A DNA stretch of 5,171 nucleotides from a virus (lineage: Duplodnaviria > Heunggongvirae > Uroviricota > Caudoviricetes): IMG/VR virus record IMGVR_UViG_2602041644_000005, one strand, 5' to 3'. Every line of letters begins with the position of its first letter. Position 1 is the first letter of the stretch. Shown piece after piece: positions 1,069-5,171 of this stretch. Made by a program: the position numbers and the translations under genes. Below the pieces are notes generated by a model. It was not told the origin of the DNA. It worked only from the letters and a program-made list of their open reading frames with translations, and did not search any database.

Positions 1069-1332
1069 TTACGCAGCTGAACCGCTAACTTTTGAATAGC
1101 ACTCAGGTAATCCATCATTTGGATTGGGGTAAATATCAGGACGCAGTTCATGAGGGGTCACGGACCAGTTTCCCAACTCACAAAGTTGTAAAACCCGTTC
1201 TGACGGGACTTGATTGTTAATTACCCAATTAGCGACGGATTGAGTGGACTTAAAACCAAAGTGACGGGCTACTTCAGATAAAGATTTTCCCGCAGCTTTT
1301 ACTGCTTTCTCTGTGTAGTTTTGAGATGACAT
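1069..1332 (-). CDS. Cro-like / YdaS-family HTH transcriptional regulator (87 aa)
   Basis: ATG at 1332-1330 with AGGAG 6 nt upstream on the minus strand (plus 1333-1345 reverse complement is agaggagaaaggt). It is divergent from the CI-like gene across an operator-bearing intergenic region. The protein carries an HTH-like segment (LSEVARHFGFKSTQSVANWV) and an ELRPD motif typical of prophage Cro/YdaS-type regulators. Confidence 0.8.
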   Translation of the reverse strand: MSSQNYTEKAVKAAGKSLSEVARHFGFKSTQSVANWVINNQVPSERVLQLCELGNWSVTPHELRPDIYPNPNDGLPECYSKVSGSAA

Positions 1333-1341
1333 ACCTTTCTC

Positions 1342-1356
1342 CTCTGAAATTCAGAG
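1342..1356. promoter_or_regulatory. 15-bp dyad CTCTGAA-A-TTCAGAG overlapping the cro-like RBS
   Basis: Two perfect 7-bp inverted arms around one central base, read directly. It sits 10-24 nt upstream of the cro-like ATG on the minus strand and overlaps its SD. Its sequence is unrelated to the CTACTT operator repeats. Confidence 0.45.
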
Positions 1357-1364
1357 GGATGATG

Positions 1365-1400
1365 CTACTTAAAATAGCAGAATGCAACTACTTAAAATAG
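1365..1400. promoter_or_regulatory. Two copies of a 13-bp operator-like repeat CTACTTAAAATAG (1365-1377 and 1388-1400), candidate OR sites with PRM/PR-like promoter hexamers
   Basis: Exact 13-bp direct repeat with a 23-bp period. Each copy is an imperfect dyad (CTA.TT.AA.TAG, one mismatch). Each contains TAAAAT (a -10-like hexamer) 5-7 nt upstream of an in-frame ATG of the CI ORF (1382 and 1403). On the minus strand TTGCAT (-35-like) faces the cro-like gene. Confidence 0.5.
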
Positions 1401-2143
1401 AAATGACTAGCGTATGTGATGCGAGTAACCTTCTACCTATGGTAGAAGAACAGAAGTATCCAGATTTCGCCAAGAGACTAAACGAGCTAATGACAAACAA
1501 GGGAATTTCTGTCACCCAACTCAAAAGTCTTGTGGGCGTTACATATGAAATGGCGCGGCGATACACAATCGGCGCTGCGAAGCCTCGTGCCTCTGTCATG
1601 AATAAACTTGCATTGGCTCTGGGGGTATCAGCTTCATATTTAGAATATGGTGTTGGCGAGAGAGAAGGATGTAAGGAAATGGCAAGCATCCCCAATCCAA
1701 CAAAACCCGATGTATACAGGATAGAAGTTTTGGATCTTAGCGTTAGCGCAGGACCTGGAACCTATATGCTTTCAGACTATGTTGATGTGCTCTACGCCAT
1801 TGAGTTCACAACAGAGCATGCCCGTTCTCTTTTCGGTAATCGTTCTCAAGATGATATTAAAGTTATGACTGTAAATGGCGACAGCATGTCCCCTACTCTA
1901 GTTTCCGGAGATCGACTGTTTGTCGACATTTCTGTTCGCAACTTCCAAACTGATGGTGTTTACTCTTTCGTTTATGGTAAGACGTTCCACGTTAAACGTC
2001 TACAAATGCAAGGCAACAAACTCGCCGTTCTTTCGGATAATCCAGCCTATGAGAAATGGTACATTGATGAGAAGTCCCAAGATCAACTTTATGTTATGGG
2101 CAAAGCATTGATACACGAATCAATTAAATACAACCGGCTTTAG
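1382..2143 (+). CDS. cI: CI-like phage repressor: N-terminal XRE-type HTH plus C-terminal S24 (LexA-like) self-cleaving peptidase domain
   Basis: HTH segment FAKRLNELMTNKGISVTQLKSLVGVTYEMARRY. The C-terminal domain carries the catalytic Ser motif VNGDSMSPTL and a downstream Lys (HVKRL), as in LexA/CI/UmuD. It is divergent from the cro-like gene. The start is uncertain among in-frame ATGs at 1382, 1403 and 1439; none has an SD, which fits a leaderless PRM-type transcript. The gene symbol is used functionally, not as an identity claim. Confidence 0.85.
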   Translation: MQLLKIEMTSVCDASNLLPMVEEQKYPDFAKRLNELMTNKGISVTQLKSLVGVTYEMARRYTIGAAKPRASVMNKLALALGVSASYLEYGVGEREGCKEMASIPNPTKPDVYRIEVLDLSVSAGPGTYMLSDYVDVLYAIEFTTEHARSLFGNRSQDDIKVMTVNGDSMSPTLVSGDRLFVDISVRNFQTDGVYSFVYGKTFHVKRLQMQGNKLAVLSDNPAYEKWYIDEKSQDQLYVMGKALIHESIKYNRL

Positions 2144-2313: not shown

Positions 2314-3390
2314 ATGACAAAATCAATTTGTTTTTTTAATCATAAAGGTGGGGTAAGTAAAACCACAACAACCTTCAATCTTGGATGGGCACTTGCGGAT
2401 GAAGGCAAGAAAGTATTGATGGTTGACCTTGATTCGCAATGTAATCTAACAGGAATGGTTCTTGGCTATGAAAAGATTGATGAGGGTTTAGATTCTTTTT
2501 ATTCTAGCAGAGATAACTTAACTCTTGGACCTATTGTAGAATATTTGATTAATGGCGGACAACCTGAAGCATACCTTGAAAAAGAAACGGGAAAATTACA
2601 CCCTACACTGCATGAAAACCTTCTGCTTCTTCCCGGACATTTAGATGTTTCGGACTTAGATTCACAGATAAGTGTTTCTCTAAAAATTGCTGCTGGTATT
2701 CCTGCTACAAGAAATATACCAGGGAACCTGCCAAAAATATTACAGCTAATCGCCATGAAGAATAATATTGATTACATTCTTTATGATCTCAGCCCTAATG
2801 TTGGAGGTTTAAATGAAGTAGTTCTCATGTCAAGTGACTATTTTATCGTACCTGTAGCTCCAGACTTTTTTTGCTGGCAAGCAATTCGCTCTCTCTCAAA
2901 AAATATACCTCGCTGGCACAAAGAATTAGCATTATTTAAAGAAAATAATGATGGTAACTCTTCACAATCAATTAAAAATGCACCGCAGTTTCTAGGTATG
3001 ATTCAGCAGAGATACAGGCCGCGTAAAGGAGCACCTGTAAAATCTTTCGAAAAATGGATGGCAGCTATCCGTGATGCTGTTGATTCGATCTTAGTGCCAA
3101 ATCTAGAAAAAATTACCTGCATAATTCCACGAGATAAAGTGCAACATGCAATTAACAAAACAACAGTCAGTGGAGATTTATCAGCCTATGATCTTGCGCA
3201 TATTTCCGATTTCAACTCATTAATCGCAATAAGCCAACAACTAGCGACACCTGTTTTCTCCATCAGTGATCAGCAAATTCGCGATTCAGGGCAATTTGGG
3301 CATGCCTTAAATACAATGAAATCAAGCAGAGACGCCTTTAACGAACAATTTAAAGGGCTGGCTCAACGAGTTCTAGAACTTACAAAGTAA
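2314..3390 (+). CDS. ParA/MinD-family P-loop ATPase (deviant Walker A) with an uncharacterised C-terminal extension, 358 aa; orphan, no ParB partner
   Basis: N-terminus MTKSICFFNHKGGVSKTTTTFNLGWALADEGKKVLMVDLDSQCNLT matches the ParA/Soj/MinD deviant Walker A (KGGxxKT[TS]) and the following hhhhDxD motif. A mid-protein hydrophobic beta-strand plus Asp (YILYDLSPN) resembles ParA Walker B. AAGGA lies 9 nt upstream of the ATG. The gene is clearly more AT-rich than its neighbours (hand counts of 60-nt samples give roughly 28-45% GC against about 50% in the cro-side genes). The final about 150 aa are not recognisable. Confidence 0.85.
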   Translation: MTKSICFFNHKGGVSKTTTTFNLGWALADEGKKVLMVDLDSQCNLTGMVLGYEKIDEGLDSFYSSRDNLTLGPIVEYLINGGQPEAYLEKETGKLHPTLHENLLLLPGHLDVSDLDSQISVSLKIAAGIPATRNIPGNLPKILQLIAMKNNIDYILYDLSPNVGGLNEVVLMSSDYFIVPVAPDFFCWQAIRSLSKNIPRWHKELALFKENNDGNSSQSIKNAPQFLGMIQQRYRPRKGAPVKSFEKWMAAIRDAVDSILVPNLEKITCIIPRDKVQHAINKTTVSGDLSAYDLAHISDFNSLIAISQQLATPVFSISDQQIRDSGQFGHALNTMKSSRDAFNEQFKGLAQRVLELTK

Positions 3391-3575: not shown

Positions 3576-3633
3576 CAACAACAAATATCTACTTTTTGTT
3601 GTTGATTTTTGCTACTTTAAGTAGCAACATAAT
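3576..3633. promoter_or_regulatory. Candidate OL-type operator/promoter: perfect 19-bp dyad TTGCTACTT-T-AAGTAGCAA (3609-3627), an upstream CTACTT half-site (3589-3594), a flanking 10-bp inverted repeat (3576-3585 / 3595-3604) and CATAAT (3628-3633)
   Basis: The dyad core CTACTTTAAGTAG matches the cI-proximal repeats CTACTTAAAATAG at 11 of 13 positions. The two CTACTT half-sites here are 22 bp apart, against 23 bp at the cro/cI site. -35-like TTGCTA and -10-like CATAAT overlap the dyad. Everything is read directly from the sequence; function is inferred. Confidence 0.45.
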
Positions 3634-3736
3634 GTAAGCTATCACGGACAGGCAGGACGCCCACGAAGTAGCCGCCGGTGGCGTATGAATGACCGGATGA
3701 TTCGTTAGCAACAAAAAAGCGCCCTACCGGACGCTT

Positions 3737-3750
3737 CGCTCTTTAAAAAT
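3737..3750 (+). promoter_or_regulatory. boxA-like element CGCTCTTTAAAAAT (possible nut-site component)
   Basis: Near-identical to the boxA consensus (GCTCTTTAACAA in rrn; CGCTCTTAAAAATT in lambda nutL as I recall it). It sits about 110 nt downstream of the OL-like promoter on the plus strand. No convincing boxB hairpin follows, so this is tentative. Confidence 0.3.
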
Positions 3751-3902: not shown

Positions 3903-4397
3903 TTATGCTTGTTGGTCATCATTAATATCCGTTAGTTCATTCTCTAGAGGTAGATCTCCCGCACACCAAGCTATAAATTTTTCTTTGGTTGTTAAATCGT
4001 ACTTAGTTGGAACACCAGCAAAAATACAGGCCCGAATGAAAGCCGCTCGTTCAAGTGATTTCCATGGATTACTATCAGTATCTTGGATTTTTAAATACCT
4101 AGCTTGCAACTGATCTTCAGGAAGGGTATCAGACTCAATCAGCAGTCTTTTGTAATGCCTCGCTTGCTCTTTAGACATTCCAGCCTCTTGGCCAAACTGA
4201 TAGACCAACTGAAGAACCGAAAGTACGGCAACAAACAAACCGAAAATAAATAAATTACTGTACGGGGCGAAAACTGAAAAACCGAGAACGATTAACATCA
4301 ACGTTATTAATTTATCAATGCGAGTTAACAACGTGTAATTCATCTTCTCCAATACATAAGAGTAGTGAACATAAAATTTATAATCGTCTCTGGTCAT
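3903..4397 (-). CDS. Small inner-membrane protein (164 aa; two predicted N-terminal TM helices plus charged C-terminal domain); candidate SieB-like superinfection-exclusion or abortive-infection protein
   Basis: A 495-nt ORF in AT-rich DNA, where stop codons are frequent, so unlikely by chance. The hydrophobic hairpin LITLMLIVLGFSVFAPYSNLFIFGLFVAVLSVLQLVY is followed by a K/E/D-rich soluble region. It is oriented opposite to cI and convergent with the ParA-like gene. The start is ATG 4397, or ATG 4343 with GGAG 3 nt upstream. SieB-like is a guess from size, topology and genomic context only. Confidence 0.65.
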   Translation of the reverse strand: MTRDDYKFYVHYSYVLEKMNYTLLTRIDKLITLMLIVLGFSVFAPYSNLFIFGLFVAVLSVLQLVYQFGQEAGMSKEQARHYKRLLIESDTLPEDQLQARYLKIQDTDSNPWKSLERAAFIRACIFAGVPTKYDLTTKEKFIAWCAGDLPLENELTDINDDQQA

Positions 4398-4828: not shown

Positions 4829-4917
4829 ACAAAACAGAGAAGAGCATCACCGGACGACGGGCTCATAACCCAATCCATCCGGGCGGCTGCCACCGCAGGT
4901 GTTCTTCTCTGTTTTGT
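4829..4917 (+). other. Long-range inverted repeat forming a potential 20-bp RNA helix (4829-4848 with 4898-4917) that encloses about 49 nt, immediately upstream of the RBS of the 4966 gene
   Basis: ACAAAACAGAGAAGAGCATC pairs with GGTGTTCTTCTCTGTTTTGT; 17 of 17 core positions pair if one G-U is allowed, and the helix extends to 20 bp with a second wobble. A stem this long is unusual for a simple terminator and has the length RNase III recognises. Confidence 0.4.
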
Positions 4918-4965: not shown

Positions 4966-5171
4966 ATGGCTAGCGAACGCAGTACTGATGTGCAGGCATT
5001 TATCGGGGAGCTGGACGGCGGCGTATTTGAAACCAAAATCGGCGCAGTTCTCAGTGAAGTCGCTTCCGGTGTGATGAACACGAAAACCAAAGGTAAGGTC
5101 TCGCTCAACCTGGAAATCGAACCGTTTGATGAGAACCGTGTGAAAATCAAACACAAACTCTCATATGTTCG
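4966..5171 (+). CDS. 5' end of a hypothetical phage early protein (open to window end)
   Basis: ATG at 4966 with GAGGAG 9 nt upstream; alternative in-frame ATGs at 4948 and 4951. Translation MASERSTDVQAFIGELDGGVFETKIGAVLSEVASGVMNTKTKGKVSLNLEIEPFDENRVKIKHKLSYV has no stops and ordinary enterobacterial composition. No family recognised. Confidence 0.7.
   Translation, partial: MASERSTDVQAFIGELDGGVFETKIGAVLSEVASGVMNTKTKGKVSLNLEIEPFDENRVKIKHKLSYV

What the first reader, a model, noticed from the sequence alone, without database searches (positions are those of the whole stretch)
1342..1356. A second, unrelated palindrome (CTCTGAA-A-TTCAGAG) sitting on the cro-like ribosome-binding site
This dyad differs in sequence from the CTACTT operators and directly overlaps the SD/5' UTR of the cro-like gene. 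It could be the site of a different regulator, such as Cro itself or a host factor, or an RNA hairpin that occludes the SD. Either would add a regulatory layer beyond the standard CI/Cro switch.
Basis: inference. Interest (0 to 1): 0.42.

Follow-up and report, generated by a model that had tools for sequence, protein, structure and literature searches.

The report
Hairpin hiding the cro ribosome site
The palindrome is real and is one version of a conserved stem-loop in a family of lambda-like prophages that pairs the ribosome-binding site of the cro-like gene with the bases just after its promoter's -10 box, so it is most likely an RNA-level brake on Cro translation and not a protein-binding site.

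Summary
The dyad is real and slightly longer than reported: a perfect 8+1+8 palindrome, CCTCTGAA-A-TTCAGAGG, at 1341-1357. On the cro-sense (minus) strand its 3' arm covers AGAGG of the Shine-Dalgarno (SD) sequence AGAGGAG, 7 nt before ATG 1332..1330. Alone it is weak evidence (-10 kcal/mol, z -1.95). Comparison is decisive. Among 35 distinct leaders (34 from relatives in Salmonella, Citrobacter, Klebsiella, Serratia, Yersinia, Erwinia, Pectobacterium and others, plus the window), 27 keep an SD-pairing hairpin at this place. Stem sequences, loop lengths (3-13 nt) and registers all differ, with compensatory changes (C-G/G-C/A-U) and G.U pairs mostly on the cro-sense strand. The CI/Cro operators and the Cro recognition helix stay constant. 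One problem remains. The 5' arm always starts 1-3 nt after the -10 hexamer of the only consistent leftward promoter (TTGCAT-17-CATCAT), so the predicted start, G1352, falls inside that arm. I therefore favour (0.4) a start-site-split hairpin, as in IS10/IS50: mRNA started at PR is translatable, and cro-sense transcripts entering from upstream are silenced. The main rival (0.3) is an ordinary leader attenuator. No start site has been mapped.

The parts
1341..1357 (-). Perfect 8+1+8 inverted repeat. As cro-sense RNA it reads CCUCUGAA-U-UUCAGAGG (7-bp stem with a 3-nt loop in the MFE fold, -10.0 kcal/mol).
   Evidence: invariant in the close E. coli copies that were aligned, and one E. coli allele carries an A->G change in the 5' arm (L003)
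1350..1357 (-). 5' arm (anti-SD, CCUCUGAA). It occupies positions 2-9 after the -10 hexamer, i.e. the promoter discriminator and the predicted +1.
   Evidence: in 27 hairpin variants the first paired base is at position 1 (20 variants), 2 (6) or 3 (1) after the -10
1341..1348 (-). 3' arm (UUCAGAGG), which overlaps the SD.
1339..1345 (-). SD AGAGGAG of the cro-like gene (core GGAG at 1342..1339, 6 nt before the AUG).
   Evidence: read from the sequence; AGGAG is invariant in the alignment of 21 leaders
1069..1332 (-). cro-like gene (87 aa, YdaS-family HTH).
   Evidence: (PF15943, E 2e-11)
1359..1364 (-). Predicted PR -10 hexamer CATCAT (CATTAT or TATTAT in relatives).
   Evidence: the only leftward promoter found consistently (28 of 34 variants). 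Its register co-shifts by 3 nt with the -35 in class B relatives.
1382..1387 (-). Predicted PR -35 hexamer TTGCAT, 17 nt from the -10.
1352..1352 (-). Predicted PR transcription start (7th nt after the -10, at a T-G step). This is a prediction, not a mapped site.
   Evidence: RNA starting here folds at only -0.6 kcal/mol
1365..1377 (.). Operator O1, CTACTTAAAATAG, between the PR -35 and -10.
1388..1400 (.). Operator O2, CTACTTAAAATAG, 23 bp from O1.

Best explanation
The dyad is the E. coli allele of a conserved, fast-evolving stem-loop on the cro-sense strand. A pyrimidine-rich anti-SD stretch sits directly after the -10 hexamer of the rightward-type early promoter (PR) and pairs with the Shine-Dalgarno (SD) region of the cro-like gene. 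As RNA, this blocks 30S binding.

The canonical start of PR (about G1352) lies inside the 5' arm. mRNA started at the CI-controlled promoter should therefore lack the anti-SD and be freely translated. Any cro-sense transcript that enters from upstream, running antisense through cI (from convergent accessory genes inserted beside cI, spurious promoters or read-around), carries both arms and is translationally silent. The element would then be an insulator that ties Cro synthesis strictly to initiation at PR. This is the logic known for IS10/IS50 transposase genes (fold-back inhibition).

Shown: the palindrome, its overlap with the SD, and its conservation with covariation. Also shown: a G.U-pair bias to the cro-sense strand, its fixed position relative to the -10, and the constancy of the operators and the Cro HTH. 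Inferred: the promoter and its start site, the existence of read-in transcripts, and the effect on translation.
For: 1. Conservation. 27 of 35 distinct leaders (34 from relatives plus the window) have a stem of -6.7 to -13.6 kcal/mol that pairs the SD. There are at least 10 different stem sequences, loops of 3-13 nt and several registers.
2. Covariation. In 12 same-register sequences 90.6% of cells are paired and 3 pairs change on both sides (CG7/GC4/AU1; GC7/AU5). The covariation score is 0.339 against 0.136 in shuffles (0 of 500), and slid controls give 34-53% paired. RNAalifold recovers the stem.
3. Arm swapping. Cognate arms fold at -9.43 kcal/mol and swapped arms at -6.09 +/- 0.52 (0 of 2000 permutations).
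4. Strand. There are 16 G.U pairs in sense stems against 3 in antisense stems; mean energy is -9.1 against -7.0 kcal/mol (Wilcoxon p = 0.011).
5. Promoter. TTGnnn-16 to 18-YATYAT is the only consistent leftward promoter (28 of 34 variants). The -35 and -10 shift together by 3 nt in class B relatives. PL in the window has the same layout.
6. Geometry. The 5' arm starts 1-3 nt after the -10 in all 27 variants. The predicted start falls at position 7-8, at a pyrimidine-purine step in 23 of 27, and removes 76% of the stem pairs. Energy drops from -9.6 to -0.85 kcal/mol; for the window it drops from -10.0 to -0.6.
7. Covariation reaches position 5 after the -10, upstream of the predicted start. RNAs that start further upstream therefore appear to be under selection.
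8. Possible source of read-in. Cro-sense genes convergent with cI lie just beyond cI in L206, L213, L217 and L223.
Against: No transcription start is mapped, so the split of the hairpin rests on consensus promoter geometry. No source of leftward read-in transcription is demonstrated in this window. The neighbours of cI here (the ParA-like gene and PL) point away from cro. The nearest minus-strand gene has a terminator-like site at 3737..3716. No conserved upstream leftward promoter was found. Family members without the hairpin exist (the Providencia phages, L220, L222; L005 and L006 are weak), so it is not essential. The window's own dyad is a perfect palindrome, so it gives no strand information itself. 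The strand asymmetry rests on about 5 lineages against 2.
Confidence: 0.4

Rival explanations
1. Ordinary leader attenuator. The real start of PR lies at or before the first base of the stem, so every cro mRNA carries a 5'-terminal hairpin. The hairpin lowers Cro translation constitutively and may also stabilise the 5' end.
For: The covariation and SD-pairing evidence is the same as for the best explanation. A stem that begins 1-3 nt after the hexamer is also what a 5'-terminal hairpin would look like. Covariation at position 5 after the -10 shows that this base is in a functional single strand.
Against: It needs a start no more than 2-5 nt after the -10 hexamer, outside the usual 6-10 nt range (established knowledge of sigma-70 promoters). 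No alternative promoter placed further upstream is conserved. The only hexamer that would fit, TAAGTA inside O1, lacks the -7 T and has no -35. Stems of -10 to -13.6 kcal/mol over the SD of a protein needed for lytic growth would be costly. The mapped start of the related Rac ydaS promoter fits canonical geometry (PMC9638921).
Confidence: 0.3
2. Antisense stem-loop. The hairpin functions in a rightward (cI-sense, PRE-type) transcript. Its loop pairs with the 5' end of cro mRNA, as RNA-OUT pairs with RNA-IN in IS10, and speeds antisense inhibition of Cro.
For: The predicted 5' end of the PR message (GAAUUUC...) is exactly complementary to the top of the hairpin on the other strand. The window's palindrome folds equally well on both strands (-10.0 kcal/mol). 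A CII-like gene (PF06892) lies downstream of cro, so a PRE-type promoter is expected.
Against: In at least 5 lineages the antisense version is poor (-1.2 to -5.6 kcal/mol against -6.7 to -11.9 for sense), because the sense G.U pairs become C.A mismatches. No rightward promoter was located.
Confidence: 0.08
3. Protein operator. The dyad is the DNA site of a dimeric regulator (the Cro-like protein, the CII-like protein or a host factor) that sits over +1 of PR.
For: It is a perfect 17-bp palindrome spanning -5 to +12 of the predicted PR, a classical repressor position.
Against: The span varies from 17 to 27 nt and the spacer from 1-3 to 13 nt. Half-site sequences differ between phages whose Cro recognition helix is the same (KSTQSVANW) and whose O1/O2 operators are conserved. 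It is a single copy in the prophage. The invariant part is simply the SD. A host factor shared by enteric bacteria would need a conserved site.
Confidence: 0.04
4. No function. It is a chance palindrome, or a quasi-palindrome kept perfect by template-switch mutation.
For: 36% of shuffled windows contain a perfect 8-bp-arm palindrome, and the hairpin z-score is only -1.95. Template switching can mimic compensatory change (established knowledge).
Against: The element persists at the same place across many genera, in different registers, always pairing the SD. The cognate-arm test gives 0 of 2000 and the covariation controls give 0 of 500.
Confidence: 0.06
5. Non-template-strand DNA hairpin. The two arms pair in the single-stranded non-template DNA of the open or scrunched initiation complex at PR and tune promoter escape.
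For: The arms flank the predicted +1, and G.T-tolerant pairing is favoured on the non-template (cro-sense) strand. A small non-template hairpin is functional at ops sites (abstract of PMC5995543, listed).
Against: There is no precedent for 7-11-bp stems in an initiation bubble. Spans of 17-27 nt exceed the unwound region. This model has no need for the 3' arm to track the SD in several registers.
Confidence: 0.05

Closest known systems
IS10 / IS50 'fold-back inhibition' of transposase translation (Davis, Simons & Kleckner 1985, Cell 43:379; content from my own knowledge, existence of the reference confirmed)
   Same: An inverted repeat whose distal arm covers the ribosome-binding site. The element's own promoter starts between or inside the arms, so only transcripts reading in from outside form the hairpin and are not translated.
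   Different: Here the protected gene is the cro-like arm of a phage immunity switch, not a transposase. The proximal arm lies in the promoter discriminator. Neither the start site nor any read-in transcript has been shown.
SD-sequestering 5'-UTR hairpins such as the IS200 tnpA leader (PMC4513863)
   Same: A short cis stem pairs the Shine-Dalgarno sequence and represses translation initiation.
   Different: In IS200 both arms lie inside the mapped 5' UTR. Here the predicted start removes most of the 5' arm.
Lambda promoter-dependent RNA structures: sib retroregulation of int, the N-leader RNase III site, and the alternative cIII mRNA folds (own knowledge)
   Same: Lambdoid early genes whose expression depends on which transcript carries a complete RNA structure.
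   Different: Those structures act through RNase III or lie 3' of the gene. None is an anti-SD placed in the PR discriminator, and lambda cro itself has no such complementarity.
Lambdoid OR operators bound by CI and Cro
   Same: A palindrome in the cI-cro intergenic region that overlaps PR.
   Different: Its sequence is unrelated to the CTAC-N5-GTAG operators. It is variable in spacing and sequence while the repressor and Cro HTH stay constant, and it is a single copy.

Membership tests
cis-acting SD-sequestering mRNA hairpin | The stem includes the Shine-Dalgarno sequence of the downstream gene | tested here: met
   The 3' arm 1348..1341 covers AGAGG of AGAGGAG. The SD was scored as paired (3-4 of 4 core bases) in 21 variants. 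In the window's own group only GG of the GGAG core lies in the stem (2 of 4).
cis-acting SD-sequestering mRNA hairpin | The structure is conserved through compensatory change | tested here: met
   CG/GC/AU and GC/AU pairs; 0 of 500 shuffles; 0 of 2000 permutations
cis-acting SD-sequestering mRNA hairpin | Both arms are present in the gene's own mRNA | tested here: inconclusive
   The predicted PR start (position 7-8 after the -10) removes 76% of the stem pairs. No experimental start site is available.
cis-acting SD-sequestering mRNA hairpin | The stem lowers translation, and this is relieved by arm mutations | not testable with these tools
   Needs reporter fusions or toeprinting.
IS10/IS50-type fold-back inhibition (promoter-selective RBS occlusion) | The resident promoter's start lies between or inside the repeat arms | tested here: met
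   Met by prediction only. TTGCAT-17-CATCAT gives a start at G1352, inside the 5' arm 1357..1350. The same geometry holds in all 27 variants.
IS10/IS50-type fold-back inhibition (promoter-selective RBS occlusion) | Transcripts from outside exist and are translationally silent | not testable with these tools
   There is only indirect support: covariation upstream of the predicted start, and convergent genes beyond cI in some relatives.
CI/Cro-type protein operator | Fixed half-site spacing and sequence that track the DNA-binding protein | tested here: not met
   Span 17-27 nt and hypervariable arms, against an invariant Cro recognition helix and conserved operators.
CI/Cro-type protein operator | Repeated sites in the regulatory regions | tested here: not met
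   No second copy with 3 or fewer mismatches in the window or in the 41-kb prophage locus.
Intrinsic terminator | A GC-rich stem followed by a U tract | tested here: not met
   The stem is followed by AGAAAGGUAUG. No terminator was called in 1200-1600.
Any Rfam family | A covariance-model match | tested here: not met
   No hit at E <= 1 in the whole window.
Antisense RNA stem-loop (RNA-OUT-like) | A stable hairpin on the antisense strand across lineages | tested here: not met
   The antisense fold is -1.2 to -5.6 kcal/mol in 5 lineages in which the sense fold is -6.7 to -11.9.

The most novel reading that the evidence does not exclude
A lysis-lysogeny switch carries a built-in translational insulator. 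The anti-SD arm is placed in the PR discriminator, so that only RNA started at the repressor-controlled promoter can make Cro, and any read-in transcript folds back on the ribosome-binding site. Non-orthologous YdaS-type cro genes (L025, L031/L038, L042) appear to have arrived at the same layout, which would make it a general design rule for mosaic prophage immunity modules.
Probability: 0.4. Interest if true: 0.65.

Novelty: new member of a known kind. Interest (0 to 1): 0.42.

Why it matters
CI/Cro switches are usually described as purely transcriptional. A conserved, co-varying SD-occluding stem at cro adds a post-transcriptional layer in a prophage family found in about 200 of 5,426 complete E. 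coli genomes and in many other Enterobacterales.

If the start site does split the hairpin, the element would show how a mosaic prophage protects lysogeny from stray transcription coming from variable neighbouring genes. That would be the same solution insertion sequences use. It would also be a ready-made, portable 'promoter-specific translation' part.

If instead the hairpin is inside PR mRNA, it sets the Cro dose and so the bias of the switch. Either outcome can be tested with one 5'-end mapping experiment and a few reporter fusions.

Tried and rejected
1. Megablast of the immunity region against 50,697 phage records found only a 66-bp ymfL match, so no characterised phage shares this module. 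tblastn found only uncharacterised relatives: Phi06_2987 and two Providencia phages.
2. An exact search for the 15-mer in viral contigs returned mostly chance hits plus near-identical E. coli prophages, which was uninformative.
3. I looked by eye for known host transcription-factor consensus sites (LexA, CRP, FNR, Fur, ArgR, Cra and others). None has this spacing (own knowledge, not a tool test).
4. I looked for a second copy or half-sites in the prophage and found none.
5. I looked for an alternative conserved leftward promoter upstream that would put the hairpin into the RNA. There is none. A TATTTT hexamer inside O2 scores in 11 of 34 variants but has no conserved -35.
6. A crude promoter-plus-hairpin survey of 80 distant YdaS-like loci was too noisy to use.
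7. The Rac ydaS leader was checked as an experimentally mapped analogue. It has no anti-SD hairpin, so it does not test the model.
8. P(SD unpaired) with 60 nt of upstream sequence is low even in hairpin-less relatives, so that measure is not specific.
9. Literature searches found no description of this element. Mahillon & Chandler 1998 was not available.

Full report
**Context.** The window is the immunity region of a lambdoid prophage inserted at tRNA-Arg in E. coli. It is 100% identical to strain Z247 and others, and 205 of 5,426 complete genomes carry at least 80% of the module.
- The minus strand carries a cro-like gene (1069-1332, 87 aa, Pfam YdaS family) followed by a CII-like gene (Phage_CP76, annotated ymfL).
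- The plus strand carries a CI-like repressor (HTH plus S24 peptidase) and a ParA-like ATPase.
- Two copies of CTACTTAAAATAG (1365-1377 and 1388-1400) lie between cro and cI.

**The observation.** The dyad is real and one base longer on each side than reported: CCTCTGAA-A-TTCAGAGG at 1341-1357.
- On the cro-sense strand it reads CCUCUGAA-U-UUCAGAGG-AGAAAGGU-AUG.
- The 3' arm therefore contains AGAGG of the Shine-Dalgarno (SD) sequence AGAGGAG.
- Taken alone it is not compelling. Shuffled windows contain 0.48 such palindromes on average.
- The fold is -10.0 kcal/mol with z = -1.95.
- It is a single copy in the 41-kb prophage locus and matches no Rfam family.

**Comparative evidence.** I collected orthologous cro-like loci through protein relatives. 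I also scanned viral and metagenome contigs for the operator-plus-hexamer motif.
- This gave 34 distinct leaders from relatives, 35 with the window. They come from E. coli, Salmonella, Citrobacter, Klebsiella, Serratia, Yersinia, Erwinia, Pectobacterium, Rouxiella, Pantoea and Providencia phages.
- The operators, the TTGnnn -35 and the YATYAT hexamer are conserved. The segment between the hexamer and the ATG is hypervariable.
- Even so, 27 of the 35 leaders fold into a hairpin of -6.7 to -13.6 kcal/mol whose 3' arm is the SD region.
- Examples of the stems:
  - UCCUCUA/UAGAGGA
  - CCUCUAC/GUAGAGG
  - UCCUGUGAA/UUCACAGGA
  - UCCUGUGAG/CUCACAGGA
  - UCCUAUGA/UCAUAGGA
  - CCUUCUG/CAGGAGG
  - CUCUUGG/CCAGGAG
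  - CCCUUUUGUAG/CUAUAGGAGGG
  - CUACUC/GAGUAG
- Loops range from 3 to 13 nt, and the total span from 17 to 27 nt.

**Tests of the structure.**
- On 12 sequences that share one register, 90.6% of cells are paired and three pairs change on both sides (CG7/GC4/AU1; GC7/AU5). The covariation score is 0.339 against 0.136 in shuffles (0 of 500). Sliding the partner by 1-3 columns drops pairing to 34-53%.
- RNAalifold finds the same stem independently.
- Joining each 5' half to its own 3' half gives -9.43 kcal/mol. Joining it to another variant's 3' half gives -6.09 +/- 0.52 (0 of 2000 permutations).
- Sense-strand stems contain 16 G.U pairs against 3 in antisense folds. They are more stable on average, -9.1 against -7.0 kcal/mol (p = 0.011; about 5 lineages against 2).

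**Why it is not a protein site.** A dimeric HTH site needs fixed spacing and should co-vary with its protein.
- Here spacing and sequence vary freely, while the Cro recognition helix (KSxQSVANW) and the O1/O2 operators are constant.
- The only invariant part of the dyad is the SD.

**The complication.** The only leftward promoter conserved across the family is TTGnnn-16 to 18-YATYAT (28 of 34 variants). In the window it is TTGCAT (1387..1382), a 17-nt spacer, and CATCAT (1364..1359).
- The assignment is supported by a coupled 3-nt shift of both hexamers in class B relatives (L006, L220-L222).
- It is also supported by the paralogous PL region of the window itself (see the 'In passing' paragraph below).
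- Canonical geometry then puts +1 at the 7th-8th base after the hexamer, G1352 here.
- In all 27 hairpin variants the first paired base is 1-3 nt after the hexamer. In 23 of 27 a pyrimidine-purine step sits at position 6/7 or 7/8.
- Starting there removes 76% of the stem pairs. Mean energy drops from -9.6 to -0.85 kcal/mol, and for the window from -10.0 to -0.6.
- Yet covariation is seen at position 5 after the hexamer, upstream of that start.
- Two well-supported inferences therefore conflict, unless the selected structure forms in RNAs that start upstream of PR.

**Resolution I favour (0.4).** This is a start-site-split hairpin, as described for IS10/IS50 transposase genes (Davis, Simons & Kleckner 1985; own knowledge, reference seen).
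- PR-initiated mRNA lacks the anti-SD and is translated. Cro-sense transcripts entering from upstream fold back on the SD.
- This would keep Cro synthesis dependent on the CI-controlled promoter, whatever gene lands next to cI in these mosaic phages.
- The slot next to cI is variable (ParA-like, HigB, DUF3626, NYN and others). In L206, L213, L217 and L223 it holds genes that point toward cro.
- Weak points: no start site is mapped, no read-in transcript is shown, and the neighbours in this window point away from cro.

**Main rival (0.3).** The start may be non-canonical, so that the hairpin sits at the 5' end of every cro mRNA as a plain attenuator.

**Minor rivals.** These are an antisense RNA stem-loop, a non-template-strand DNA hairpin, a protein operator, and no function at all. 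They are listed with their tests in the rivals section.

**Comparison with what is known.** SD-sequestering stems are common (for example IS200; PMC4513863), and promoter-dependent RNA structures are a lambdoid theme.
- Two full-text searches of the paper library, plus a look at the Rac/CP-933P papers on YdaS-type switches, found no description of this element.
- The Rac ydaS leader has no such stem.
- I file it as a new member of a known kind. The split-hairpin reading is the more novel possibility.

**In passing.**
- The family shows a conserved third palindrome over cI codon 13.
- It has an always-open 12-codon N-terminal extension of cI that starts next to the PRM -10.
- The PL region has the same architecture as PR:
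  - OL2 at 3589-3601
  - TTGATT at 3602-3607
  - OL1 at 3612-3624
  - CAACAT at 3625-3630

Noticed in passing
window 1430-1448: A third perfect palindrome, CTTCTACC-TAT-GGTAGAAG, lies over ATG 1439 of the cI-like gene. It contains CTAC-N5-GTAG like the operators and is conserved across all genera. Pantoea L006 carries a two-sided change (TCTTCCAC...GTGGAAGA). It could be a third operator (O3) or an RNA structure.
   Followed up: partly
window 1403-1441: ATG 1403, 4 nt after the PRM-like -10 hexamer TAAAAT (1393-1398), opens a 12-codon in-frame extension of the cI-like gene. The extension is open and of constant length in 44 of 45 distinct sequences that match the motif, a few of which lie outside the family. 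Codons 3-8 vary freely and (C/S)NLLPMVE is conserved. This suggests a leaderless or near-leaderless cI mRNA, as for lambda cI and RacR. Annotations disagree on the start (1382 or 1439).
   Followed up: partly
window 3589-3630: The PL/OL region has the same architecture as PR/OR: OL2 CTACTTTTTGTTG (3589-3601), -35 TTGATT (3602-3607), OL1 CTACTTTAAGTAG (3612-3624, inside a perfect 19-bp palindrome at 3609-3627) and -10 CAACAT (3625-3630). The operator spacing is the same 23 bp.
   Followed up: partly
L006, L220, L221, L222 compared with window 1359-1387: The family has two promoter registers. In class A the TTG follows O2 and the -10 follows O1. In class B both hexamers sit 3 nt further upstream and overlap the operator ends. 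The class B members examined lack a strong anti-SD hairpin (L006 has only a weak one).
   Followed up: partly
window 1359-1364 and 1382-1387, compared with L001-L004: Several of the few substitutions among E. coli copies of the intergenic region fall in the predicted PR hexamers (TTGCAT/TTGCAA, CATCAT/CATTAT). The operators do not vary among the close copies in the alignment, though the more diverged L003 has one O1 substitution. The dyad varies only by one A->G change and one extra C, both in L003. These may be promoter-strength alleles.
   Followed up: no
L025, L031/L038, L042 (upstream of the cro-like start, about 2440-2490): Non-orthologous YdaS-type cro genes with different operators also have an anti-SD arm right after the predicted -10: CUCCGU/ACGGAG, UCUCAU/AUGAGG and CUUCG/CGAGG. 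The layout may be recurrent. This was judged by eye only.
   Followed up: partly
window 2314-3390: An orphan ParA/AAA_31-type ATPase (358 aa) sits between cI and PL, with no partner ParB-like gene in the window. Relatives carry other cargo in this slot: HigB toxin, DUF3626, an NYN nuclease and unknown genes.
   Followed up: no
window 4829-4853 / 4893-4917: A 25-nt inverted repeat (84% complementary, 39 nt apart) lies upstream of the ORF that starts at 4966. It may be a leader structure of the early-left operon.
   Followed up: no
window 3903-4397 (minus strand) and 3716-3737: A 164-aa minus-strand ORF has no Pfam match and a predicted hydrophobic segment. It is followed by a terminator-like hairpin with a T tract at 3737..3716. 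It is the nearest leftward transcription unit upstream of cro.
   Followed up: no
PMC9638921 (Rac prophage): The authors report that the near-consensus ydaS promoter is very strong in vitro but barely detectable in vivo with an in-frame lacZ fusion, and leave this unexplained. The Rac leader has no obvious SD hairpin.
   Followed up: partly
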